Positions 52,280 to 63,627 of a DNA stretch of 64,000 nucleotides are shown piece after piece. A program made the translations under genes and the position numbers. The notes beneath the pieces are model-generated. The model was given only the letters and a program-made list of their open reading frames with translations. It was not told the DNA's origin and ran no database searches. Positions within the stretch are counted from its first letter, which is position 1. Every line of letters begins with the position of its first letter. Location of the stretch: the IMG/VR virus record IMGVR_UViG_3300009095_000016, positions 2,271 to 66,270 of that record. One strand, given 5' to 3'. This DNA comes from a virus.

Positions 52280-53390
52280 TGGCAGCCATGAATATGCTTG
52301 TCTCTGGGTGTCGCCACGACGCGGCGCCCGCTCCGGCGGGACGCGGCGCGGGGCGAGTGCAAGCGTCCGGGTTCTACCCCCGGACAACACGCCCCCGGGT
52401 GTTCCTCCGCTTAGCGCGGGGGGTGACCGGGGAGCGCGCATCCGAAGCACTGACGCACGGGAAACCGGCGACGTCGGGCGGGAAAGCGGCCAGCACGAAC
52501 GGGCGCGATGCGGCGGAACGGGAACGGTGACCAGCCGTAACGGTCACACTCCCGCGATGCGGTTCCTTGAGATTTTCGGAGCCTGGCGCGGCAACCCTGG
52601 GAAGGGAGCGCGGGCGCAAGCGGTAGCCGGTCGTCCTGATGTTTGGGACGGCATCCGGAAAAAACGGCACCCGATAGGCCACAACGGGGCGAGCGATTCA
52701 AACCCTTGTGCTGTCTGTCTTGACCCACCAGCGATTACCGGTCACTAGTCGGTCCCCTTACAGGCGCAACCTAAGCGCACGGGGGAACGGGAATACCGCG
52801 AAAACTGAGGTTGCGAACCACTACCGACGGGATGTCAGGTAGTAAGGCGGTCCGGACAGTGCAAGCGCGATAACCCCCGGCCGAATCACGTAAGGCGCGT
52901 GTGGGTCCCGATTCAATGCGGGGCCGGAGCGTCAGAACCAATCCGGGACACTCCCCGATTGGCCGGTTTGACGGTGTGACCTATCGGAACAACGCACCAT
53001 GCGGAAACGGGCATGGATGATCACGCACTCTTGACGGACGGGAAACCGTCGGGTGATGTGCGACCGAATGGCGGGATACCGGGGGTGTCGGAACCCTTGC
53101 CCGTGACGTGCGGTAGTCGCGTAGCGCTCCGCACATGTGTTGCAAGACAAGGGGGACGGATGTTCGTGCATTCGTCCCCCGGCGGGGAGCGGACACAACG
53201 ACGTGACGCGCGGGACGCACCGGAAACGGCGCGCACGCGACGATACGCGGTCCGCTCCCAACGTGCTTACCGTGCGGTGAGCACGAACGGACAACACAGT
53301 TCGCGTCCGCTTAGGCAACGGTAAAGGGCCGTGCAACCTATGACGGGTGAATTCTGTCCGTTTCGCCCTCCGCACGGAGGTTCGGGAAGG
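52280..53390 (+). ncRNA. candidate large structured ncRNA or structured early leader
   Basis: Contiguous stem-loops with GAAA tetraloops (53004, 53042, 53223), 10-12 bp stems with G-U pairs, and no credible ORF. Confidence 0.5.
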
Positions 53391-53633: not shown

Positions 53634-55565
53634 ATGGGAAACACGTTCGTTGCGCTGAACATTGACGGTGACGCGCGGTTCTACGGTTTGGGAGTGCGGG
53701 GAGTCGGTCACGTCGTGCTCATCCCGTCCGGAATGCACAGTGACCCGCTTGCGTGCGAGTCGGTCGAAAAGGCGTGCGATGGTAAGCCGCTGGACAGTGC
53801 GCGACTCGCCGAAAAGTTCACTGGTGACAAGCGGTGCGCGCGGTGCGTCAAGTGGCTTGAGTCGGACGGCGGTAAGAGCGATCTTGAGGCCGCGCGACAG
53901 GACAAGTGGGACGACGAAAACGGGCCCGGTCTCGCGTCCATCATGGGTGAGTTCACCTTGATCACGCTTGACGACGTCGTGAACGTCACGGCGGACGGGA
54001 GCGACGCGCGGGAGGAATCCGCCCCGGTCCCGGCGGCGGAAATCGTCAAGGATGCGGCGGCGGCGGGTGTCAAGGCTCCGGCCCGTAAGGGCGGGAAGCG
54101 CGGGAAGCGCAAGAATTCCGCCCCGGTCGCGACGGGTGACGTGTGTGCGTCGACCGGTCTCACGTTCGCAGCGATGCGGGACGCGGTCGCGACATACTAC
54201 GCGAACGGCGGGGAGGTTCCGGCGGAAATTGCGACGCTCCCGGACCCGTACGTCAAGCGTCCCGCGCCGGACATGGCGGGAGCGGTGAGCGGTCCGGTTC
54301 CGGCGGTGCTCCCGTGCGACTACGCCGGGCCGGTGTCCAAGCTGAACATGGAGCGGACGCACGGAAAGTGCCCGGGATGCTCCGCGTACATCCCGCTGCT
54401 GCCGGAGCGGGAATCCAAGGAATCCGGCCCGAAGGTTTCCAAGATCGCTTGCGCGGGTGTCGGGAGCGCTCCGGCGCCCGGGACGCGCGTGCGGCGCGAT
54501 GACCACTCCGTAAGCGTCCCGGACGACTTTCAAGGGAAGACGTCCGCCCCGTGCGGGACGTGCGCCCGGGTGATCGCTGTCTCTCGGGACGGGGTCATGC
54601 GTCGGCACAACGGCGTGGAAGTACCGGAGAGTGCGGGAGAGTGCCCGGACAAAATCGGTACGCACAACGTCGGAGGCGCTGCCACTCCCGCACACAAGGG
54701 CCTGACGTCGCGCATGATCGAAACGGTGGAACACGGGAGCACCCCCGGGGACACCGCGACGGCTGACAAGCGGCGCGCGACGGAATCCCGCTGCGCCCGG
54801 TCGCGCAAGGTGATGAGCGGCCGCAAGACTCCCGGGACGGTCGAATGCCCGACGTGCGCGCGGCCGGTCGAACTCAAGGCCGTACAGCGGAAAAAGGGCA
54901 CGGTCTACGTGATTCCGGAGCACATCCGCGCGGGTGAGTCGGTCAAGCACATCGGGGGCGGCGACGTCCGGGACGTCACGCCCCGGGGTGAGGGTGCGGA
55001 CGTCGGCGCGACCGTGACGCGCGGGAAGGTGTCGGCGCGGCTGGCACTGTCCCGGGGGCACGGTTCGGTGGACGGCGCGGCGAACACGGGTTCTCAGAAC
55101 ATGGCGCCCGTGCAGCCGCGCGGGTGGCTCGGTAAGGCGGGAACGGGACAGCTTCCCGCGACCGTGCGGCCTGGGATTGACCCGGAGGTGACCGGCCGCG
55201 AGTGCGTGGCGTGCGGGGAACTCCCGGAGATCGCGCACAAGGGCAAGTCGCGCGGGTGGCGTCGTCGTCACTCCACGATCGTCGGAACCATCCTGCGGGA
55301 GCGCAAGGCGAAGCGGGATGCGGAGCGCGCGGCTGCAATCGCGCGGGGCGAGATTGCGTCGGCGCAGGAAAAGCGGGAGGGCCGTAAGGCCGCTTCGGTC
55401 GGATCGTTCGCCGAAGGGACGTGCGCGGGCGTCGTCTCTCACGAGCCGCGCCCGGAGTTCGCCCCGAAGGGTGAGCGGCGCCCGGCGGGATGGAAGGCGG
55501 GGGAGATCACCCGGGAGACGGCGCGTAAGGCTCTGGACGGGGTCGCGCGCAAGGCTGGCAAGTAA
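53634..55565 (+). CDS. 643-aa protein with repeated Zn-ribbon motifs
   Basis: CARC, CPGC, CGTC...H, CPTC...H and CVAC, with a GAAAGGGGAG RBS. Confidence 0.75.
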   Translation: MGNTFVALNIDGDARFYGLGVRGVGHVVLIPSGMHSDPLACESVEKACDGKPLDSARLAEKFTGDKRCARCVKWLESDGGKSDLEAARQDKWDDENGPGLASIMGEFTLITLDDVVNVTADGSDAREESAPVPAAEIVKDAAAAGVKAPARKGGKRGKRKNSAPVATGDVCASTGLTFAAMRDAVATYYANGGEVPAEIATLPDPYVKRPAPDMAGAVSGPVPAVLPCDYAGPVSKLNMERTHGKCPGCSAYIPLLPERESKESGPKVSKIACAGVGSAPAPGTRVRRDDHSVSVPDDFQGKTSAPCGTCARVIAVSRDGVMRRHNGVEVPESAGECPDKIGTHNVGGAATPAHKGLTSRMIETVEHGSTPGDTATADKRRATESRCARSRKVMSGRKTPGTVECPTCARPVELKAVQRKKGTVYVIPEHIRAGESVKHIGGGDVRDVTPRGEGADVGATVTRGKVSARLALSRGHGSVDGAANTGSQNMAPVQPRGWLGKAGTGQLPATVRPGIDPEVTGRECVACGELPEIAHKGKSRGWRRRHSTIVGTILRERKAKRDAERAAAIARGEIASAQEKREGRKAASVGSFAEGTCAGVVSHEPRPEFAPKGERRPAGWKAGEITRETARKALDGVARKAGK

Positions 55566-55630
55566 TCACACTCGGCAGGATCACGGGCCCCGGGAATCAC
55601 CGGGGCCCATCGGAAAGGGGAACACGGGAC

Positions 55631-56284
55631 ATGAGCACGATCACGGTTGCGCAGGACATCGAGCACGCGCGGGAGCGGCTGACGCTGCCGTTCGAATCGC
55701 TCCGGCAGGACATGACGGCGCACTTCTGGGAGGCGTTCGGCGCGGCGGCGGCCCGGTACCGGGCGGCCCGTTCGGAGGGTCCGGCGGCCCGGGAATTCGC
55801 GGGCATCGTGCGGGAGCTGGAGCGGGACGCGGCAGGAACCGCGAATGACCCGAAGTTGCGGCGCGGTGCGGACGTCCCGGAGGAATACCCGCTCCCGGCG
55901 GTGGGGCGTCAGCCGTGGGCCACGATGCCGACCGACGGGAGCGGGCGGCCCACGGTTACGGAACGCGTGGTGTACGTCCTTACGGGCGCGGCGGTGGCGG
56001 CGGTGCTGCTGATCCTGGGATTCCTGATCAGCGGGCACGGGGATGCGCGGGAAGTCCCGGCGGCGCCGCTCGCGGTGACGGGTGCCCCGGCGGGTGTCGG
56101 TGAGCCGGACCGGGACGCGGCGCGGGAACTGATCATCGAGGGGGCGTGGCTGTCATGGCAGGCGTACACAGAGTGCGGGGAGGGTCCGGCGCAGTGTGAC
56201 GCGGTGCTGCGGGAGGTGAACGCGAACCCGTACGGCGTCCACTTCTTCGAGGACGGGAGCGCGGTCGACCCCGCGCGCAACTGA
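55631..56284 (+). CDS. single-pass membrane protein
   Basis: TM helix VVYVLTGAAVAAVLLILGFLI. Confidence 0.65.
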   Translation: MSTITVAQDIEHARERLTLPFESLRQDMTAHFWEAFGAAAARYRAARSEGPAAREFAGIVRELERDAAGTANDPKLRRGADVPEEYPLPAVGRQPWATMPTDGSGRPTVTERVVYVLTGAAVAAVLLILGFLISGHGDAREVPAAPLAVTGAPAGVGEPDRDAARELIIEGAWLSWQAYTECGEGPAQCDAVLREVNANPYGVHFFEDGSAVDPARN

Positions 56285-56383
56285 TCACGGCCGTGCGGTC
56301 CGGTCGGGCTCCGGGGTGACCCGGGGTCCCGGCCGAATCGTCCGGGAGTGAGGGGCGAGACATCGGAAGGGAAGGAAACGATC

Positions 56384-56782
56384 ATGAGCGTGACGCTGGT
56401 CAAGCCGTCGGACACTGCGGGAGTGGAGATCAACCCGGGTGTGGGCATGAACTCCGGCACGGGAGCGGTTCAGTTCATCGGCGACATGCCCGCGCGCAAG
56501 GTGAACGGCCCGCTGATCCTGGTGGCCGGGATGCGCGTGCGCCTGCCGGAATCGGTCAAGATCGCCGGTCCGGCGGTCGTGCGCGCGGTCGCGGTGGTCA
56601 TCGAGCGGGACGGATTCCGGGACGCGGCGGAGACCGTGCCCACCTTCCGGGGCGTGGTCATCACGGCGGACGGGGACGAGTACGCGACCGGCCCGCGCGG
56701 TGACATGGAGTCCGTGCGCCTGGCGTGGCTGCGCCTGGCGGTGGAGTCGGGGACGTTCCAGCGCGTTGCCCGGATGCGCTAA
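56384..56782 (+). CDS. hypothetical early protein
   Basis: Extended RBS CGGAAGGGAAGG. Confidence 0.65.
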   Translation: MSVTLVKPSDTAGVEINPGVGMNSGTGAVQFIGDMPARKVNGPLILVAGMRVRLPESVKIAGPAVVRAVAVVIERDGFRDAAETVPTFRGVVITADGDEYATGPRGDMESVRLAWLRLAVESGTFQRVARMR

Positions 56783-56830
56783 CATCCGGTGACCTAGGCC
56801 AGACAGGAAGAACGGGAAGGGAGACGGGAC

Positions 56831-57214
56831 ATGCAGGAATCCATGACGCGCGGGGTGTGGTGGGACACGGCGGCGCCGTACGGGCCGAACGGCTACCAGT
56901 ACGGACGCGGGGAGGACGTCACCGGCCACACGGTCGCGCGGGAGATCACGTTCGACATGATGCCGGGTGACCCGAACTGCATCGCGCGGGGCGTGGCGGA
57001 GATGACCGACGGGAGGGTCTACACCTTCACGGTCCTGAAGCCCGGCCACGCGACCACGCGCGACCACGACGGGCGCCCGCGCCCGCGCCTGGCGACCCTG
57101 TCGCGTCAGACGTTCCATGAGGCGGCGCGCGGGATCGTCGAATGGGAGTTGGCCGGGCACCGGCTCACCCCTGAGTCCGCGCGGGCCTACGGGGAGCAGA
57201 TCAGCGCGCTCTGA
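56831..57214 (+). CDS. hypothetical early protein
   Basis: Extended RBS GGGAAGGGAG. Confidence 0.65.
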   Translation: MQESMTRGVWWDTAAPYGPNGYQYGRGEDVTGHTVAREITFDMMPGDPNCIARGVAEMTDGRVYTFTVLKPGHATTRDHDGRPRPRLATLSRQTFHEAARGIVEWELAGHRLTPESARAYGEQISAL

Positions 57215-57340
57215 CGTCGGGGAGACGCCCTAGGCGAACCGGGTCCCACGGGGTCCGGTTCGCCGGGAGTGCCGCCCGGCACTGCGGGATCCGGTCACGG
57301 ACGGACCGGTGCCCATTGGTTCGGAAAGAGGGAAGATCAC

Positions 57341-57751
57341 ATGCGTAAGCCCATCGTCACCATCCTGGCCGGTTTCGTCGCGCTGTTCGCGTTCTCCGCT
57401 CCGGCGGACGCGGCCCCGGCGGGCGGGAAGCGTCCGGCGGTCCGGTCGGTCTGCGAGACCGGATACCGGGGGATGCCCGCGTACGACCGGCTGTGCCTGA
57501 CGCGCGGGACCGTGCTGGACGGCGTGAACCTGTGGTTCCGCTACGTCGACACCGGCAAGGTCATCCCCGCGCGGGAGCGTCGCGCGCTGTGCCTGGACGC
57601 CACGGCCACGGGTCACACCCGCGCCGGGATCATCGACGCGCTGAACGACGTGGCGTATGACCACTTCCGGAACTACCGGCTCGTCCTGTCGGTGGCCGGG
57701 ACGGTCGGCGTGATGGACTGCAAGGCCATGGGGGTCAAGATCAAGAAGTAG
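57341..57751 (+). CDS. secreted protein (signal peptide)
   Basis: MRKPIVTILAGFVALFAFSAPADA|A, with several Cys. Confidence 0.7.
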   Translation: MRKPIVTILAGFVALFAFSAPADAAPAGGKRPAVRSVCETGYRGMPAYDRLCLTRGTVLDGVNLWFRYVDTGKVIPARERRALCLDATATGHTRAGIIDALNDVAYDHFRNYRLVLSVAGTVGVMDCKAMGVKIKK

Positions 57752-57843
57752 TCCGGGACCGGCGGACGGGAGCGCCCCGGAAGGGGGCCGGGGCGTTCCA
57801 GCCTGTCTATCGCGGATGGACACGAGGAGAGGGAGAAACGATC

Positions 57844-58161
57844 ATGGCGAAACTTTCTGCGGCCGGGCGTCTTGTGCTGTTCCTGGTCGACAGCCCGCAC
57901 GCACGTGTCAGCTACTCGCTGGGCGGCGGGTTCAGCCCGTCCGTCATCGCGTCCATGGAGCGGGGGCACGGTACGAAGTCCAACCCGCGCGCCGACGTGG
58001 TGCTGAAGCTGATCGACGTGGGCGCGCTGGAGGGGGCGGAGTTCGAAGACCTGCGGCTGACGAACCGGGGCCGTACGGTCCTGGCCGAGCAGCGGGCGCG
58101 CGGGTGGGAGCTGGTCACGGAGACCGGCCGCAAGCCGCGCATGGAGCAGCGCAAGGGGTGA
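57844..58161 (+). CDS. hypothetical early protein
   Basis: GAGGAGAGGGAG RBS. Confidence 0.65.
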   Translation: MAKLSAAGRLVLFLVDSPHARVSYSLGGGFSPSVIASMERGHGTKSNPRADVVLKLIDVGALEGAEFEDLRLTNRGRTVLAEQRARGWELVTETGRKPRMEQRKG

Positions 58162-58245
58162 CCGGCTGACGGGAGCGCCCGGGGTGTGCCGCCCCGGGCG
58201 CTGACGCCAACCTGTCACGGACGGAAACGACGGAAGGGAGAAACG

Positions 58246-58605
58246 GTGAGCACCAACAATCTGACGATCGTCTCGCAGCTCCGCTGTTCGGAGTGCGGGG
58301 AGCCGATCCGGCTCGCGGAGGTCACGAAGCGCTACGGGTTCCCGGAGTACCGGTTTGAGCACATCGGGGAGCCGTGCCGCCGGTACTACGGGAAGGATCC
58401 GGCGGAACACGAGGGGTTCCCGGTGAGCAACCCGGACCCCGTGCGGCGGTGCGCCGCGTGCTGGCCGTACGAGACGCGCACGGAGGTCGGGGAGGCGCCT
58501 GGCGACGACGGGCGCGGGATCGTCACCATGCGTCAGGAGGCGTACGGGGACAGCACGACGTGCGCCACGTGCACGCGGTCCAACTGGTACTCGATCGGCG
58601 ACTGA
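58246..58605 (+). CDS. Zn-binding hypothetical protein
   Basis: CSECG...H...C, CAAC and CATC. Confidence 0.65.
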   Translation: MSTNNLTIVSQLRCSECGEPIRLAEVTKRYGFPEYRFEHIGEPCRRYYGKDPAEHEGFPVSNPDPVRRCAACWPYETRTEVGEAPGDDGRGIVTMRQEAYGDSTTCATCTRSNWYSIGD

Positions 58606-58701
58606 ACCGGCGACGTTCGGGGGCGCTCCGTGGGGGCGGAGCGTGCCCCGTGTGTTTCCGGCAAGCGGGAACGGGCGGAAGGGAGTACGGAAGTGGATCT
58701 C

Positions 58702-59049
58702 ATGCAGATCGCGGGTCACCTGTCGCTGGAGTTCGGGGCGGTCGTGACGGGTCCGTTCAAGGGTGAGCGTCAGGACTCGGTTCAGGTCATGCGGCCGGAC
58801 GGGTACGGCGTCATGCTGATGATGGGCCCCGGGAAGGCGCTCGCCGTGGAGTCCCGGCCGGGCGGCCTGGACGTCTGGCAGATCCGGGAGACGGACGACC
58901 CGGACGTGATCGACATCTCGAACACGCGCGACATGATCCGGTACGACACGGACCTGAACGGCGCGCGGGAGGCGCTGCGGGAGACGGGCCCGGCGGTGTG
59001 GGTCAAAAAGGACACGCCGCCCGCGCGCTGCGAGACCTGCGGGAAGTAA
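58702..59049 (+). CDS. hypothetical early protein
   Basis: Extended RBS; C-terminal CETC. Confidence 0.6.
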   Translation: MQIAGHLSLEFGAVVTGPFKGERQDSVQVMRPDGYGVMLMMGPGKALAVESRPGGLDVWQIRETDDPDVIDISNTRDMIRYDTDLNGAREALRETGPAVWVKKDTPPARCETCGK

Positions 59050-59162
59050 CGAACGGGTCACGATGTAGGCGGACGGGAGCGCCCGGGTTCTCCGGGCGTT
59101 CCAGCCGGTCTATGATCGGGCAACGGCCTAGGCCGAACGGGAACACGGAGAAGGAGAAGATC

Positions 59163-59561
59163 ATGGGTGAGACGGTCAAGCTGAACGCGAAGGTCACGAC
59201 GTGGCGCGACGGCAAGGTGCTCCGTGACGCGCGGTGGGAGGCGTACGCGGCGGTCCTGAAGGACGGCAAGCCGTTCGAGACGTCCGGCCACCTGAGCGGG
59301 CGCCCGGGGTCGGCGGGATCCCGTCCGTCGGAGGTCGGCCGACTCGCGCGGGAGTGGCACGCGGAAGCGGCCCGGTCCACCTACGTGGTGTTCAGCTACG
59401 AGACGCCGATCGCCTGGCGCAACGCTGACGACACGTGGACGATCCCGGCGCGCGGGACGCTCGGTTTCGACGCCGAGTCGCAGACGACCGTGACCGGCAT
59501 GAACAAGATCCGCACGGCGGTCGCGTCGTTCAGCACGTACCGCGAGACGCCGCAGGACTGA
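59163..59561 (+). CDS. hypothetical early protein
   Basis: GGAGAAGGAG RBS. Confidence 0.65.
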   Translation: MGETVKLNAKVTTWRDGKVLRDARWEAYAAVLKDGKPFETSGHLSGRPGSAGSRPSEVGRLAREWHAEAARSTYVVFSYETPIAWRNADDTWTIPARGTLGFDAESQTTVTGMNKIRTAVASFSTYRETPQD

Positions 59562-59647
59562 CACACGGGCGCACGGCCGCGTTCGGGAGTGCCGGGAGGG
59601 GGCCCGGCATTCCAGTGCACGACCGGACGACGGAAAGAGGGAAGAGC

Positions 59648-59983
59648 ATGGCGACGTATCACTACCTGAAGCCCGGGGAAGCGCTCGCACTGGCGAGTGA
59701 CCACGCGCGGGACTTCGAGAAGATCATCGGCCTGCGCGGGATGGACGCCGAGAACATCCGGCCCCGGATCGAGCGGACGCGGGCCGGGTACATGCACCCG
59801 CCGTTCGACACGTGGCGCGCGTACGGGAGCCGCGACAAGATGCGGGAGATCGTTTCCGTGGAGCGCACGGGCGGCGACGCGGACCCCGGGACGATCACGG
59901 TCACGTTCAAGAACGACGACGGCACCACGGAAGAGACCTATCTTCACCGGGTCGACCTGCTGTGTGTCGAGCGGCCCGTCTGA
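59648..59983 (+). CDS. hypothetical early protein
   Basis: CGGAAAGAGGGAAGA RBS. Confidence 0.65.
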   Translation: MATYHYLKPGEALALASDHARDFEKIIGLRGMDAENIRPRIERTRAGYMHPPFDTWRAYGSRDKMREIVSVERTGGDADPGTITVTFKNDDGTTEETYLHRVDLLCVERPV

Positions 59984-60058
59984 GCGGTGACGTTCGGGAC
60001 TGCCCGGAAGGGGGCCGGGCGGTCCAGTGCATTACCGACGGAAGGGAGAACGGAAATA

Positions 60059-60496
60059 ATGGACACGACGCGACAGAAGATCGACGACATCAAGCGCGGT
60101 TCGCTGCTCCAGACGGCGGGCGGTTTCGTGATCGCCGACCTGGACGGCTGGACGCCGGGGAGCCGTGACGGGCGGGTGCCGCAGGAACAGTTCCTGTACG
60201 ACACGGACGGGAACCGGCACTTCCCCGGGGCGGACGGGACGCTGACGGTCGGCGTGGCCACGTTCCGCACGCAGGAGTACGGCAAGGTGCCCGGGAGGGA
60301 CACGCAGGGTCACGCGCTGCTCAACCACGTGCCCGGCAAGCCTCCGGCCGGTCTGTGCCCGGCGTCCCGGAACCTGGGCAACTCCCTGTCGGTCTGGTCG
60401 TCGGGGACGGCGCTCACGGGCGTGACGTGCCGGGCGTGCCGGAAGATGATCGGTCTCGTGAACACGGGAGCGCCGCGCCGGAGCAACGGGATCTGA
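60059..60496 (+). CDS. hypothetical early protein with C-terminal H...C...VTC..C
   Basis: CGGAAGGGAGAA RBS. Confidence 0.6.
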   Translation: MDTTRQKIDDIKRGSLLQTAGGFVIADLDGWTPGSRDGRVPQEQFLYDTDGNRHFPGADGTLTVGVATFRTQEYGKVPGRDTQGHALLNHVPGKPPAGLCPASRNLGNSLSVWSSGTALTGVTCRACRKMIGLVNTGAPRRSNGI

Positions 60497-60498
60497 TC

Positions 60499-60780
60499 AT
60501 GCGACTGATCGCCGTTGACCCGTGGGACTGCGGGTGCACGGAGTGCATCACGGGTGAGTACGTGCCCCTGCGGTTCGCCACGGACGAGCAGGTGGCCGAC
60601 CTGATCATGGGGAGGCTGCGCAACAACCTGAACTCCGGTACCCAACTGGAGATCCACACCACGTACGCGACGGAGGGCGGGAAGCTGGTCCTTCACGACG
60701 TCACCGTGACGTACGAGCACCACGACGGGCAGACGCGGGAGTGGTCGCCGGACCCGTACCGGATGGGTCTCGCCGCGTAG
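60499..60780 (+). CDS. hypothetical protein with DCGCTEC motif
   Basis: DCGCTECITGEYVPL; starts 2 nt after the upstream stop. Confidence 0.65.
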   Translation: MRLIAVDPWDCGCTECITGEYVPLRFATDEQVADLIMGRLRNNLNSGTQLEIHTTYATEGGKLVLHDVTVTYEHHDGQTREWSPDPYRMGLAA

Positions 60781-60844
60781 CACTGCACGGAAACGACGGA
60801 CGGACGCCGGGCCCACAACGGGCCCGGCCGGAAGGGAGAACACG

Positions 60845-61468
60845 ATGGGTCGCACGGTTGAGGAATTCCACGGTCTGCTGGCCGACCTGCTGATCAACGC
60901 GCGCCGGAAGCACGACGGGCGCCCCGGTCCGGGAGAGCCCGGCTACCTGGGGCAGGAGTCGCAGGACGCGGTGACCATGTGGCGTCACATGGCGCACATG
61001 GCGCACAGCTACGCGAACGGCGCCGACGTGCGCGGGGCCCGGCCGACGTGGTCGGACCTGTGGGAGGACGGCATGGACCGGGAGAAGTTCCTGGCCCTGA
61101 TCACGGAGCGGTCCCGGATCCTGCGCGCGGTGAAGCGCGGGGGCGACATGGACACGACGCTCATGGACGACTCCGTGCGGTACTGGGAATTCACCCTGGC
61201 CCTGTCCACGGTCACGGACGACGAGCACGCCGAGTCGGCCCGGCGGACGGGCAACCGGGAGGTCGCGCACCGGATCATGCTGGAGACGGAGATTGACCTG
61301 GCCCTGATCCGGGCGTACACGGACGTCGACATTGCGACCCTGCGCCGCACGCTTCGGGAGTGCAAGGGTGAGCGTCCCGTCTGGCCGGGCGTGGACGCCA
61401 ACGGCAACCGGAAGTGGGAGCCGCATCCGCTGTTCGACCTGATCACGGCCAACCGGCCGACGGTCTGA
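60845..61468 (+). CDS. hypothetical early protein
   Basis: CGGAAGGGAGAA RBS; 207 aa. Confidence 0.7.
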   Translation: MGRTVEEFHGLLADLLINARRKHDGRPGPGEPGYLGQESQDAVTMWRHMAHMAHSYANGADVRGARPTWSDLWEDGMDREKFLALITERSRILRAVKRGGDMDTTLMDDSVRYWEFTLALSTVTDDEHAESARRTGNREVAHRIMLETEIDLALIRAYTDVDIATLRRTLRECKGERPVWPGVDANGNRKWEPHPLFDLITANRPTV

Positions 61469-61554
61469 CGTCACGGGGCGCCGCTGTTCGGGCGGGCGCG
61501 GGGCCACGGCTCCGCTCTCGTCCGTGTGGTGACGGTCCACGGGAAGGGGAAACG

Positions 61555-61863
61555 ATGCGGGCGACGACGACGGACAACGTACGGGAGCACTTCCGGCCGG
61601 GCGACGAGATCGCGAACGGCCGGGCGGAGGTGGGCGCCGTATTCAAGGTGATGCACTCGGGCTACGGGTTCGCCGGGGTGCTGCTGACGCAGCGGCCCGG
61701 GAGGAACGGACGCACGATGCGCTACGTCGTGTGGGTGGTGAGCGCCGAGGGACGGGTGCGCGCCACGATGACGACGGACGACTTCCCGGCGGCGAATGCG
61801 GCGTTCACGGCGCGCATCGTCGAGGCGGCGCGGGAGAGCGGCATGGGAGAGGTGACGGCATGA
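61555..61863 (+). CDS. hypothetical early protein
   Basis: GGGAAGGGGA RBS. Confidence 0.6.
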   Translation: MRATTTDNVREHFRPGDEIANGRAEVGAVFKVMHSGYGFAGVLLTQRPGRNGRTMRYVVWVVSAEGRVRATMTTDDFPAANAAFTARIVEAARESGMGEVTA

Positions 61864-62480
61864 CGGAGAAGCTGGACGAGATGATGAGCCTGGACGGGAC
61901 GGTCGTTCAGGTGCTGCCTGGTGGGACGTTCCGGCGCTTCCCCGGGAGCGTCTACGAACCGGAGTTCCAGATGGGGACGGACGACGACGGGCAGATCCTC
62001 AAGGTGCACGACGCGGCGATGATCGAGGAGATCGCCGGACAGGGGTGGACCGTCGAGACGGGATGGTCCGGTCAGTACAGCTACAGCGGCCCGGTCATGC
62101 ACGAATCGGAGTACATCGGCGGATCCCTTGCCGACCACATCCTTTCGACGCCGGGCCTGTGGTGCGCGCTCCCGGTCTACGTCGACTCGGAGGAGTGCCC
62201 CAACGGGTCCGACACCTGCAAGCTGTCGGACCCGTGCGTGATCTGCCACGACGGGACGGGGCGAGACCGTGAGCAGCACTGCGCCGGATGGGTCGTCATG
62301 CGGAAGGACCGCCCGGCCCCGAAGCACGTGGAGATGATCCCGGAGCGCCACAACAAGCTGCGCGGGACGGTGAGCGGCCCGGGTGACGCGGAGCTGTTCC
62401 CCGTCGACTGGCAGGACGGGACGCACAGTGTCGAGCAGTACGCCACGGAGGGCCGGGAGTGGCGGGAGATCTTCGCATGA
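61860..62480 (+). CDS. hypothetical protein
   Basis: ATGA coupling; SGQY.Y.GP.MH.SE.IGG motif. Confidence 0.7.
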   Translation: MTEKLDEMMSLDGTVVQVLPGGTFRRFPGSVYEPEFQMGTDDDGQILKVHDAAMIEEIAGQGWTVETGWSGQYSYSGPVMHESEYIGGSLADHILSTPGLWCALPVYVDSEECPNGSDTCKLSDPCVICHDGTGRDREQHCAGWVVMRKDRPAPKHVEMIPERHNKLRGTVSGPGDAELFPVDWQDGTHSVEQYATEGREWREIFA

Positions 62481-62695
62481 TCATCTGGACGTACCGGGTG
62501 GCGCCGACCGCCACGGAGCCGGAGAAGGTCAAGGCCGTGATCACGGAGGGTGGAGCGGGAGAGTTCAGCCGCCCCCGTCACGTCCTCCCGGCTGACGACA
62601 TGGAAGCGCACGCGGAGGTCGCGCGGGAGCTGGCCGACCGGCCCGCCGTGCAGGTGATCCACGAGCGCCTGATGGGCTACAACTTCCGGGCCTGA
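62477..62695 (+). CDS. hypothetical protein
   Basis: ATGA coupling. Confidence 0.55.
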   Translation: MIIWTYRVAPTATEPEKVKAVITEGGAGEFSRPRHVLPADDMEAHAEVARELADRPAVQVIHERLMGYNFRA

Positions 62696-62727
62696 ACGGG
62701 CCCGGCAACGAGGGAGAGGAACACAGC

Positions 62728-63000
62728 ATGATGCAGGAGAAGCCGCGAGAGATCATCGTCCGGGGCACGGAGGTAGGTCCGGCGGGGAGCGAGTCGCGGG
62801 GCCTGGCGGCCCGGGACACGCGCACGGGTGCCACCCTGGCGCTCCCCATGCCGATCAAGCGCAACGGGAACCCGGTCGAGGGGCGGGAGGCGACGGAGCA
62901 CGTCGCCGGTCTGCTGCTGCTGGCGCAGGGCACGGGGCGGCGGCCGGTGTGGGACCGGGGGACCCCCGACCGGGACGTCTTCCTGGTGTTCGACGCGTGA
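62728..63000 (+). CDS. hypothetical protein
   Basis: GAGGGAGAGG RBS. Confidence 0.6.
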   Translation: MMQEKPREIIVRGTEVGPAGSESRGLAARDTRTGATLALPMPIKRNGNPVEGREATEHVAGLLLLAQGTGRRPVWDRGTPDRDVFLVFDA

Positions 63001-63125
63001 TCGGTTACGTCGTCGCCGGTCTCGTTCTGGTGGGCGGTGCCGTGACCTTGCGGCACCAGTGGAAGGCGGTGCGCCGGTCGGCACGGGAGGTCCGGGAAGC
63101 CTACCGGCGCACGTTCGGCGCCTGA
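62997..63125 (+). CDS. 42-aa membrane protein
   Basis: GTGA coupling; TM helix with a basic tail. Confidence 0.5.
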   Translation: MIGYVVAGLVLVGGAVTLRHQWKAVRRSAREVREAYRRTFGA

Positions 63126-63234
63126 TCTGAGGCATTCGGGAGGATTCGGAAGGCGCTTCCGGGCGCGTTCCGAATCTTCCAGTGTGTTCCTGATCGGACG
63201 AATGGTCATGAACCAGACGGAAGGGAGATCAAGG

Positions 63235-63627
63235 GTGGAATCGGAGCGAATCAAGTTCACGGGGGCGTTCGTGCGGGAGGTGACGGCCCGGGTCGAGCGG
63301 ATCACCGACGGCATGTTCAAGCTGGGGCCGGTCGGCTCGCACCCGGAGCACGGGACGTCGTACGCCGACGCGCGGGATCAGCTCACGTGGTACGGACCGC
63401 AGGGAGCCCGGCAGGCGTGCGCGTTCTACACGTCGGCCGCCATGCGGTACCTGTCCCTGATGGGCATCGAGTCCAACGGGGACGATGGCGAGTTCTTTCT
63501 GGCCGTTCAGGTGGCGTACTCCCGGTACGGCGCCACGGCCGCCGAGCGGGAGGACTACGGCCGATGGGAGCTGCGCGGCGCCGAGCGGGCGCAGGAGCTG
63601 ATCAACGCCGCCGAGGGCGACGCGTAA
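63235..63627 (+). CDS. hypothetical early protein
   Basis: CGGAAGGGAG RBS before GTG 63235. Confidence 0.6.
   Translation: MESERIKFTGAFVREVTARVERITDGMFKLGPVGSHPEHGTSYADARDQLTWYGPQGARQACAFYTSAAMRYLSLMGIESNGDDGEFFLAVQVAYSRYGATAAEREDYGRWELRGAERAQELINAAEGDA

What the first reader, a model, noticed from the sequence alone, without database searches (positions are those of the whole stretch)
57761..63184. Conserved intergenic hairpin family (GGGAG(C/T)GCCC-loop-GGGC(G/A)TTCCAG) repeated before early genes
Seen: near-identical elements at 57761-57810 and 59068-59113 (GGCGGACGGGAGCGCCC(C)GG...CC(G)GGGCGTTCCAGCC.GTCTAT). Related ones lie at 58168-58202, 58612-58650, 59581-59619, 59989-60031 and 63135-63184. 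The stems vary but keep pairing and the flanks GTTCGGGA / TTCCAG(T/C). GTTCGGGA also occurs at 53380 and 53603. There are no U-tails. Knowledge: T7 early RNA is cut by RNase III at a hairpin before each gene. Inference: repeated RNA-processing/stabilising sites, or protein-dependent regulatory RNA elements that may work together with the upstream structured RNA.
Basis: partly seen in the sequence, partly recalled or inferred. Interest (0 to 1): 0.7.

Follow-up and report, generated by a model that had tools for sequence, protein, structure and literature searches.

The report
Intercistronic RNA hairpins, Streptomyces phage early genes
Between the small genes at one end of a 185-kb-class Streptomyces phage sits a family of long RNA hairpins with a fixed mismatch box, most likely marks where the long early message is cut or capped gene by gene, as in phage T7; this is a new family of a known kind, and no cutting has been shown.

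Summary
They lie on the coding strand, start -2 to +14 nt after a stop codon and end 21-48 nt before the next start codon.

Each is a 23-36 bp irregular helix. Its invariant box is 5'-CGGGAG/UUCCAG-3': C-G, a G.A mismatch, G-C, G-C, A-U, G.U. The other pairs covary: 45 distinct copies from 11 sequence sources (about 10 different phages), 91.7% of cells paired, 16 of 20 pairs changed on both sides, 0 of 500 shuffles as good.

The family is confined to the terminal inward-read gene array of cluster BM phages (Kela, JustBecause, Frankenweenie, Satis) and uncultured relatives. No true copy was found among the best-ranked candidates scored in 106 Streptomyces genomes, and nothing matches Rfam.

It acts as RNA. 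It is not a promoter (box spacing varies 26-41 nt), not a U-tailed terminator and not an attC site (no recombinase).

The best reading, untested, is cut-and-protect sites for a double-strand RNase, as at T7 RNase III sites. The host has RNase III and the phages do not. The hairpins also mark where gene cassettes are swapped.

GTTCGGGA at 53380 and 53603 is not part of the family.

The parts
57757..57811 (+). Hairpin c1 (subtype A, 5' GGCGGACGGGAG ... UUCCAGCCUGUCUAUC 3'). The helix extends over about 57751-57817. It starts 5 nt after the stop codon at 57751 and ends 32 nt before the ATG at 57844.
   Evidence: CM R2 59.5 bits; MFE -44.3 against -33.2 kcal/mol on the other strand, z -3.4. Orthologues show G.U to G-C and C-G to G-C changes.
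58160..58216 (+). Hairpin c2, variant subtype with the 3' box UGACG, which gives tandem G.G/G.A mismatches instead of a single G.A. It overlaps the stop codon at 58161.
   Evidence: R2 27.7 bits, E 5.5e-4. The same subtype recurs in the 251-kb and 102-kb relatives. It survives as a homology island when the neighbouring gene is replaced in JustBecause and L008.
58608..58660 (+). Hairpin c3, a variant in which the G.A mismatch and the A-U pair are replaced by G-C pairs (CGGGG...CCCCG), with one bulged G.
   Evidence: R2 55.6 bits; alignment; MFE -39.4 kcal/mol.
59064..59114 (+). Hairpin c4 (subtype A), inside an ultra-conserved spacer, about 59046-59140.
   Evidence: R2 58.2 bits; MFE -42.0 against -28.1 kcal/mol on the other strand. 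The spacer is nearly identical in 9 phages while both flanking genes differ.
59574..59625 (+). Hairpin c5 (subtype B, 5' CGCGUUCGGGAG ... UUCCAGUGCACGACCG 3').
   Evidence: R2 65.9 bits. It has U-A where c1 has C-G. MFE -36.5 kcal/mol.
59985..60037 (+). Hairpin c6 (subtype B). It starts 1 nt after the stop codon and ends 21 nt before the ATG at 60059.
   Evidence: R2 70 bits. One pair reads U.G here, U-A in Kela and C-G in JustBecause. MFE -35.0 against -25.7 kcal/mol on the other strand.
63127..63192 (+). Hairpin c7 (subtype B base with a longer upper stem; about 36 bp in all).
   Evidence: R2 57.4 bits; z -5.0. The upper stem is rebuilt with different sequence in Satis, Frankenweenie and L006-L008.
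53634..63627 (+). Array of about 19 small same-strand genes with strong GGAAGGGAG-type ribosome-binding sites. These are orthologues of Kela genes 337 down to 316, all annotated 'hypothetical', read inward from the physical right end of the genome.
   Evidence: No Pfam family for the first ten proteins. The genome end and a roughly 1-kb terminal repeat are described in PMC6687918.
55585..55608 (+). Generic 9-bp GC hairpin (GGGCCCCGG/CCGGGGCCC) in another spacer of the same array. It is not a family member; a similar one lies at 60806-60828.
   Evidence: Neither is hit by the models.

Best explanation
The seven elements are cis-acting RNA hairpins in the polycistronic early transcript of a cluster BM Streptomyces phage. 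Each forms just behind the stop codon of a cistron. It is a helix of two to three turns whose middle holds a fixed box: C-G, a G.A mismatch, G-C, G-C, A-U and G.U, preceded by a second 1x1 mismatch.

I read them as processing and stabilising signals. A double-strand-specific endoribonuclease, most probably host RNase III, binds the helix and nicks it at or next to the mismatch box. The upstream message then ends in a protective 3' hairpin. The downstream message starts with a short leader of about 20-50 nt that carries its strong ribosome-binding site.

Shown here: the RNA-level structure, its strand, position, conservation and lineage restriction. Inferred: that the array is one early transcript, that the hairpin is cut, which enzyme cuts it and where.

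As a side effect, the repeated hairpins are the junctions at which early-gene cassettes are exchanged between related phages.
For: (1) Structure under selection. In 61 copies (45 distinct) from 11 sequence sources (about 10 different phages), 91.7% of cells pair and 16 of 20 pairs change on both sides. No shuffle of 500 reaches any of the five measures, and slid controls pair only 34-51%.

(2) RNA, sense strand. All 61 copies lie on the coding strand. Five pairs are mostly G.U, including a G.U kept in 36 of 45 copies next to the box. Four of five copies fold 9-14 kcal/mol better on the + strand.

(3) Not a promoter. The CGGGA-to-TCCAG distance varies from 26 to 41 nt, the 3' flank covaries with the 5' flank, and only 21-48 nt remain before the start codon. 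Sigma-70-like sites are not above chance.

(4) RNase III-type architecture. The helices span 23-36 bp with an internal mismatch box about 12 bp below the apical loop. E. coli RNase III substrates typically have two helical turns, and internal loops restrict cutting to one strand, leaving a protective 3' hairpin (PMC1540722). The T7 early spacers fold into an upper stem whose base and 3' flank share sequence among paralogues (AAGGUC...GGCCUUUAUGAU) while the apical part varies.

(5) The enzyme is available. RNase III is present in 3 of 3 Streptomyces genomes tested and absent from four complete BM genomes. The phage has a sigma factor but no annotated RNA polymerase, so host polymerase makes the transcript.

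(6) The family is confined to the end-proximal inward-read array in four complete 184-200 kb genomes.
Against: There are no RNA data, so no 5' or 3' ends are known and cleavage is pure inference.

RNase III needs little sequence, so an invariant G.A/G.U box may instead point to a sequence-specific protein.

The S. venezuelae rpsO-pnp spacer, whose S. coelicolor counterpart is to my knowledge an RNase III target, shows no such box.

The family is lineage-specific: no true copy turned up among the candidates scored in 106 host genomes. That fits a phage-encoded partner as well as it fits simple descent by duplication.

A bulge-helix-bulge motif is reported to allow RNase III binding without cleavage (PMC1540722). 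The mismatch-pair-mismatch box could behave that way.

Other spacers of the same array carry plain GC hairpins or none, so punctuation is not uniform.

The c4 spacer is frozen in primary sequence, which structure alone does not explain.
Confidence: 0.45

Rival explanations
1. The hairpins are binding sites for a dedicated RNA-binding protein, phage-encoded or a host factor other than RNase III. It recognises the G.A/G.U box and controls the early messages as a group, for example by early shut-off, translational repression or activation of the next cistron, antitermination, or cleavage by a phage nuclease in the manner of Cas6/Csy4.
For: The box is invariant while everything else in the helix varies: C-G in 44 of 44, G-C in 44 of 45 at two positions, A-U in 41 of 45, G.U in 36 of 45, and a fixed G.A mismatch. 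Apical loops vary freely, so recognition must be at the internal box. The family is restricted to this phage lineage and was not found among the candidates scored in 106 host genomes. Dozens of neighbouring early proteins have no known family, including a 643-aa protein with many CxxC pairs at the head of the array.
Against: No candidate protein is identified. No RNA-binding or nuclease domain was found in the ten early proteins scanned. T7 RNase III sites also share primary sequence among themselves, so box conservation does not require a special protein. Variants that close the mismatch (c3 type) or widen it (c2 type) persist in several phages.
Confidence: 0.22
2. They are tail-less intrinsic terminators or attenuators, like those reported for the early region of actinophage phiC31. 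They would grade or time expression along the array, possibly overridden later.
For: They are very stable GC-rich stems placed directly behind stop codons, with no U-tract. Terminators without poly-U tails were reported from the phiC31 early region (Ingham et al. 1995, seen here only as reference 24 of PMC3993855). The nearest look-alikes in Streptomyces genomes are perfect CGGGA...UCCCG palindromes, which look to me like terminator stems.
Against: No space or signal for a promoter follows the hairpins (21-48 nt to the start codon). Seven efficient terminators in series would therefore silence the distal genes. An actinobacterial RNA polymerase was shown to need a U-tract at intrinsic terminators (title and abstract of PMC3993855). 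A terminator does not explain the invariant G.A mismatch, the conserved G.U or the 10-bp covarying lower helix. The same array also holds plain short GC hairpins, which would be the likelier terminators.
Confidence: 0.15
3. Their selected role is at the DNA level. Either they act as recombination junctions for shuffling early-gene cassettes (like PeSLs of T4-type phages, or attC-like folded single strands), or they act as hairpins in single-stranded DNA during replication or entry.
For: Homology between relatives breaks inside or at the hairpins. JustBecause and L008 diverge inside c1 and resume at c2. The c4 spacer survives at 92-95% identity between unrelated flanking genes in Frankenweenie, Satis, L006 and L007. 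PeSLs are repeated intergenic stem-loop modules that mediate such swaps (PMC4122927).
Against: Neither a tyrosine nor a serine recombinase is present in four complete genomes. No conserved GTT-type crossover box exists: subtype A has GGAC where subtype B has GTTC. Homologous recombination needs sequence identity, not compensatory pairing or conserved G.U pairs and mismatches, so the covariation points to a folded single strand, most simply RNA. No early-promoter half of a PeSL was found. Shuffling is better seen as a by-product of having repeats.
Confidence: 0.08

Closest known systems
RNase III processing signals of the coliphage T7 early region (R0.3, R0.5, R1, R1.1, R1.3)
   Same: Both are a family of hairpins between cistrons of an end-proximal early operon transcribed by host polymerase. 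Both have an irregular helix with an internal loop in the middle. In both, paralogues share sequence at the base of the upper stem and beside the loop while the apical part varies, and the hairpin sits just behind the upstream gene (substrate rules from PMC1540722).
   Different: There is no sequence similarity. The box here is two 1x1 mismatches around one C-G pair (G.A fixed), not an asymmetric loop. Stems are GC-rich and 23-36 bp long. The host is an actinomycete. Cleavage is unproven. The T7 cut coordinates used come from my own memory of Dunn and Studier (1983).
Bs-RNase III processing sites of Bacillus phages SP82/SPO1
   Same: Both are repeated, sequence-related stem/internal-loop/stem signals between early genes near the genome end of a large Gram-positive phage.
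   Different: The sequence and host differ. I did not fetch these sites, so no direct comparison was made.
Rho-independent terminators without poly-U tails in the early region of actinophage phiC31 (Ingham, Hunter and Smith 1995, NAR 23:370; seen only as a citation in PMC3993855)
   Same: Both are Streptomyces phage early-region intergenic GC hairpins without U-tails.
   Different: The BM hairpins carry an invariant mismatch box and a long covarying lower helix, and seven stand in series with no room for promoters between them. The paper is not held, so its sequences could not be compared.
PeSL (promoter-early stem-loop) cassettes of T4-type phages (PMC2839356, PMC4122927)
   Same: Both are repeated intergenic stem-loop modules that flank small genes of unknown function in plastic regions and coincide with indel and replacement breakpoints between close relatives.
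   Different: A PeSL is a composite of a terminator and a sigma-70 early promoter, and it is conserved as DNA sequence. Here no promoter half was found, and the stems covary as RNA.
Extended start-associated sequences (ESAS) of Cluster K mycobacteriophages (PMC3203893)
   Same: Both are repeated, oriented, imperfect inverted repeats with variable spacers in intergenic gaps of the non-structural arm of actinobacteriophages, and the function of both is unknown.
   Different: ESAS arms are 17-bp consensus sequences tied to a 13-bp SAS at the start codon. The BM hairpins keep structure rather than arm sequence, abut the stop codon, and have no SAS-like 13-mer beyond the ordinary ribosome-binding site.

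Membership tests
T7-type RNase III processing signals | Lies between cistrons on the sense strand of a same-strand early gene array | tested here: met
   All 61 copies are on the coding strand, -2 to +14 nt after a stop codon and 21-48 nt before the next start. That the array is one early transcript is inferred from position at the genome end.
T7-type RNase III processing signals | Irregular helix of about two turns or more, with an internal loop or mismatch region separating an upper and a lower stem | tested here: met
   Helices of 23-36 bp: a 11-13 bp upper stem, then G.A / C-G / N.N, then a 9-10 bp lower stem. The rule is taken from PMC1540722.
T7-type RNase III processing signals | Cleaved by RNase III at the internal loop, in vivo and in vitro | not testable with these tools
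   No RNA-end data are available. The host has RNase III and the phages lack it.
T7-type RNase III processing signals | Sequence homology to the T7 sites | tested here: not met
   The T7 spacers share AAGGUC...GGCCUUUAUGAU and the BM box is CGGGAG...UUCCAG, so the likeness is in architecture only.
Tail-less intrinsic terminators (phiC31 early region) | Stable GC hairpin without a U-tract, behind a gene | tested here: met
Tail-less intrinsic terminators (phiC31 early region) | Stops transcription | not testable with these tools
   Indirect argument against: there is no promoter space downstream, and an actinobacterial polymerase needs a U-tract (PMC3993855).
PeSL cassettes of T4-type phages | Stem-loop joined to a conserved early promoter | tested here: not met
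   No sigma-70-like promoter above chance in 50-64 kb. Only the c4 spacer has a TATGAT hexamer, and it lacks a -35 element.
PeSL cassettes of T4-type phages | Coincides with indel or replacement breakpoints between close relatives | tested here: met
Integron attC sites | A cognate tyrosine recombinase in the element | tested here: not met
   PF00589 and PF00239 are absent from four complete BM genomes; positive controls gave hits.
Integron attC sites | Conserved R-box pair (RYYYAAC ... GTTRRRY) at the base of the hairpin | tested here: not met
   The base reads GGACGGGA or GTTCGGGA ... TCCAGCC or TCCAGTG. No GTT is shared by both subtypes.
Cluster K SAS/ESAS | A 13-bp SAS at the start codon with 17-bp consensus inverted repeats just upstream | tested here: not met
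   The arms vary in sequence, and the element abuts the stop codon rather than the start. Definition from PMC3203893.
Any Rfam family | Match to a curated covariance model | tested here: not met
   No hit at gathering score on the whole window. No hit at E up to 1 on 55.5-63.3 kb.

The most novel reading that the evidence does not exclude
The G.A/G.U box is the recognition site of a dedicated phage-encoded RNA-binding or RNA-cutting protein hidden among the unannotated early genes. BM-type Streptomyces phages would then run their own 'mRNA punctuation' system: hairpin plus cognate protein, in the logic of Cas6/Csy4. It would cut or gate each early cistron, and the same hairpins would serve as portable junctions that let early-gene cassettes move between phages. 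The frozen c4 spacer would be the master copy or a switch point.
Probability: 0.15. Interest if true: 0.7.

Novelty: new member of a known kind. Interest (0 to 1): 0.45.

Why it matters
Nothing is known about gene expression in cluster BM phages; the papers I found are two genome announcements. This family gives a concrete, testable handle on how their roughly 100-gene block of unknown early functions is expressed.

If the hairpins are cut by host RNase III, they extend the T7/SP82 strategy to high-GC actinophages and provide natural substrates that define what Streptomyces RNase III (AbsB) recognises, which is poorly known.

If a phage protein reads the box, it would be a new RNA-protein pair, useful as an insulator between cistrons in Streptomyces synthetic operons.

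The coincidence of the hairpins with cassette breakpoints also shows how early-gene repertoires are reshuffled in these phages.

Tried and rejected
Rfam gave no family, at gathering score on the whole window or at E up to 1 on the array.

Promoter reading: box spacing varies 26-41 nt, flanks covary, and sigma-70-like sites are at chance level.

Canonical terminator reading: no U-tracts.

GTTCGGGA as a motif of its own: not enriched, and the copies at 53380 and 53603 are not family members.

Link to the upstream 1.1-kb structured RNA: the model finds nothing there.

Integron/attC reading, a lead from earlier notes: no recombinase and no R-box.

Phage-encoded RNase III: absent.

Host mimicry or a host family: among the best-ranked candidates scored (57-150 per genome) in 5 + 101 Streptomyces genomes, the only hits are a few perfect palindromes without the G.A mismatch.

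Likeness to the S. venezuelae rpsO-pnp spacer, whose S. coelicolor counterpart I recall as an RNase III target: none.

Ro/Y-RNA link: Kela has a Ro-like gene, an RNA ligase and a YrlA-like RNA 90 kb away. By my recollection of the Y-RNA Ro-binding helix, the hairpin box does not resemble it; no direct comparison was run.

blastn of c5 against 50,697 phage records: only the 7 BM-cluster records match.

Pfam on the ten first early proteins: nothing.

The phiC31 terminator paper (PMC306685) is not held.

MAFFT alone misaligned the copies, so model-based alignments were used.


Full report
WHAT THE WINDOW IS. The window is 64 kb of a 68,980-base viral contig. It is 95% identical to the cluster BM Streptomyces siphophages Kela and JustBecause and more distantly related to Frankenweenie, Satis, Kradal, Quantum and EhyElimayoE. 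These phages have 184-200 kb genomes with defined ends and a roughly 1-kb terminal repeat (PMC6687918). The window + strand from 53.6 kb onward is the reverse complement of the right end of Kela. Genes 337, 336 and so on are read inward from the physical end, and all are annotated 'hypothetical'. About 3.7 kb without convincing ORFs precedes them. The first ten proteins match no Pfam family.

The seven sites are inverted repeats and fold into long hairpins. A covariance model made from four copies finds all seven and nothing else credible in the window. Their coordinates are 57757-57811, 58160-58216, 58608-58660, 59064-59114, 59574-59625, 59985-60037 and 63127-63192. The same sites score 35-45 bits lower on the minus strand. 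The 8-mer GTTCGGGA by itself is not enriched (6 found, 3.8 expected), and its copies at 53380 and 53603 are not family members.

ANATOMY. Each element starts -2 to +14 nt after a stop codon and ends 21-48 nt before the next start codon. From the top down:
- an apical loop of 5-8 nt, often G-rich, or a further stem in c7;
- an upper stem of 11-13 bp;
- a fixed G.A mismatch;
- one invariant C-G pair;
- a second 1x1 mismatch (A.C or U.U);
- a lower helix of 9-10 bp that can run into the stop codon.
Total length is 23-36 bp.

The invariant box reads 5'-CGGGAG...UUCCAG-3'. There are two main subtypes: A (GGCGGACGGGAG...UCCAGCCKGUCUAU) and B (CGYGUUCGGGAG...UCCAGUGCAYKACCG). They differ in the lower helix in a compensatory way. 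The c2 variant has UGACG as its 3' box, which gives tandem G.G/G.A mismatches. The c3 variant closes the mismatch.

COVARIATION AND STRAND. I collected copies from Kela, JustBecause, Frankenweenie and Satis, from four IMG/VR relatives, and from two further contigs of 251 kb and 102 kb found with an exact c4 pattern. The final alignment has 61 copies, 45 of them distinct. In it, 91.7% of cells form standard pairs and 16 of 20 pairs change on both sides. No shuffle of 500 reaches any of the five measures, and sliding the partner by 1-3 columns drops pairing to 34-51%.

Among close orthologues of c6, one pair reads U.G, U-A and C-G. Five pairs are mostly G.U, and the G.U next to the box is kept in 36 of 45 copies. 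All 61 copies lie on the coding strand. Sense-strand folds are up to 14 kcal/mol more stable than antisense folds; for c5 the gain is only 1.1. The element therefore functions as a folded single strand of sense polarity, most simply as mRNA.

DISTRIBUTION. In four complete genomes, every hit with E below 1e-3 lies in the right-end inward-read array, for example Kela 164.7-178.2 kb of 185.3 kb. blastn of one copy against 50,697 phage records finds only the seven BM records. In 5 + 101 Streptomyces genomes the model finds only a few perfect CGGGA...UCCCG palindromes without the G.A mismatch. Only the 57-150 best-ranked candidates per genome were scored, so this is 'not found in those searched' rather than 'absent'. 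Rfam has nothing.

WHAT IT IS NOT.
- Not a promoter. The two boxes are 26-41 nt apart, the 3' flank covaries with the 5' flank, and little room is left before the start codon. Sigma-70-like sites are at chance level.
- Not a canonical terminator, because there are no U-tracts.
- Not an integron-type attC site, because there is no tyrosine or serine recombinase and no shared GTT box.

MOST LIKELY MECHANISM. The architecture is a helix of two turns or more with a conserved internal mismatch region in the middle, sitting between cistrons just behind the upstream gene. That is the architecture of bacterial RNase III substrates. In those, internal loops limit cutting to one strand and leave a 3' hairpin that protects the upstream RNA (PMC1540722). 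When folded, the T7 early spacers show the same logic. They have an upper stem whose base and 3' flank share sequence among paralogues (AAGGUC...GGCCUUUAUGAU) and a variable apical part (cut positions from my own memory). In the BM hairpins, the four pairs directly above the mismatch (G-C, G-C, A-U, G.U) are the conserved ones. That is where a 'proximal box' would lie; this parallel is inference.

The host encodes RNase III and the phages do not. Kela has a sigma factor but no annotated RNA polymerase, so host polymerase must make the transcript. I therefore put 'cut-and-protect signal for a double-strand RNase, probably host RNase III' first, at about 0.45.

RIVALS. The invariance of the box, its lineage restriction and the many unknown early proteins keep a dedicated RNA-binding or RNA-cutting protein alive (0.22). 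PMC1540722 also notes that a bulge-helix-bulge motif can let RNase III bind without cutting. Tail-less terminators were reported for the phiC31 early region (cited in PMC3993855). However, seven in series without promoters, the U-tract requirement of an actinobacterial polymerase (PMC3993855) and the unexplained box make that reading less likely (0.15). A purely DNA-level role is least likely (0.08).

CASSETTE JUNCTIONS. Homology between relatives breaks at the hairpins. JustBecause and L008 follow the window up to the 5' arm of c1 (57781 and 57765) and resume at c2. In JustBecause a different gene follows the single remaining c2-type hairpin. The c4 spacer (about 59046-59140) is nearly invariant in nine phages, including Satis, which shares only about 74% average nucleotide identity with the close relative JustBecause (PMC6687918). 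Both flanking genes there are replaced by unrelated ones. This resembles the role of PeSL modules in T4-type phages (PMC4122927), but without their promoter half. I regard shuffling as a consequence of having repeats rather than their selected function. The frozen primary sequence of c4 remains unexplained. It holds a TATGAT hexamer with no -35 element and a GGCCTAGGCC palindrome.

RELATION TO EARLIER NOTES OF THIS SCAN. Many phages in the scan carry intercistronic hairpin families read as T7-like. One note, e1-5382481, describes about 25-bp hairpins with a fixed mismatch box in a 251-kb Streptomyces phage and relatives. I found this same family in a 251,159-base IMG/VR contig, so that note probably concerns the same family on other DNA. 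I could not verify that the genomes are identical.

VERDICT. This is a real, strongly supported RNA structure family. It is a new member of a known kind, the intercistronic hairpin punctuation of phage early operons. Its biochemical function is inferred, not shown. Interest 0.45.

Noticed in passing
window 59046-59140 (c4 spacer): About 95 nt, from the stop codon through hairpin c4 to GGCCTAGGCCGAACGG, are almost invariant in nine phages although both flanking genes are replaced by unrelated genes. This is primary-sequence conservation far above the rest of the array. It contains TATGAT (59111-59116) with no -35 element.
   Followed up: partly
window 56793, 57229, 59127 (and 2004, 7820, 44434, 49890): CCTAGGC occurs 10 times against 4.1 expected (2 of 100 shuffles reach 10). 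Three of the copies lie in spacers of the early array, and three are GCCTAGGC palindromes.
   Followed up: partly
window 53634-55565 (+): The first large gene of the array encodes a 643-aa protein with many CxxC pairs and no Pfam match. Its orthologues vary in length: 1950 nt in Kela, 1764 in Frankenweenie and 1542 in Satis.
   Followed up: no
L001:8993-9361 and L002:8852-9220 (Kela gene 328, JustBecause gene 330): The annotated start codons overlap hairpin c5 by 11 nt. In the window, an ATG at 59648 with a GGAAAGAGGGAAG ribosome-binding site lies 22 nt after the hairpin, so the database starts are probably too far upstream.
   Followed up: partly
L135:34649-37283 (Kela 84.6-87.3 kb, outside the window): A Ro-like RNA-binding protein gene and an RNA ligase gene are followed by a partial YrlA (bacterial Y RNA) match: 36 bits, below gathering score, tRNA-like domain only. 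This looks like a phage Ro/Y-RNA module.
   Followed up: partly
L135:38423-38507 (-) (Kela about 88.4 kb): An unannotated tRNA-like element (Rfam tRNA, 52.7 bits) with a 17-nt insertion in the anticodon region lies next to tRNA-Ile. It recalls the non-decoding tRNA mimics noted elsewhere in this scan.
   Followed up: no
window 55585-55608, 56300-56335, 57233-57300, 60806-60828, 61482-61531: Other spacers of the same array hold plain GC hairpins without the box. The one at 61482-61531 starts with GTTCGGGC and ends with GTCCGTGTGG, like a decayed family member, but scores below threshold.
   Followed up: partly
L002:7090-7500 (JustBecause): The orthologue of window gene 57844-58161 is replaced by an unrelated 231-nt gene. 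The c1 and c2 hairpins are merged into one c2-type hairpin, and the next spacer holds a different small hairpin (CTCCGGGCATTCGCCCGGGGG).
   Followed up: yes
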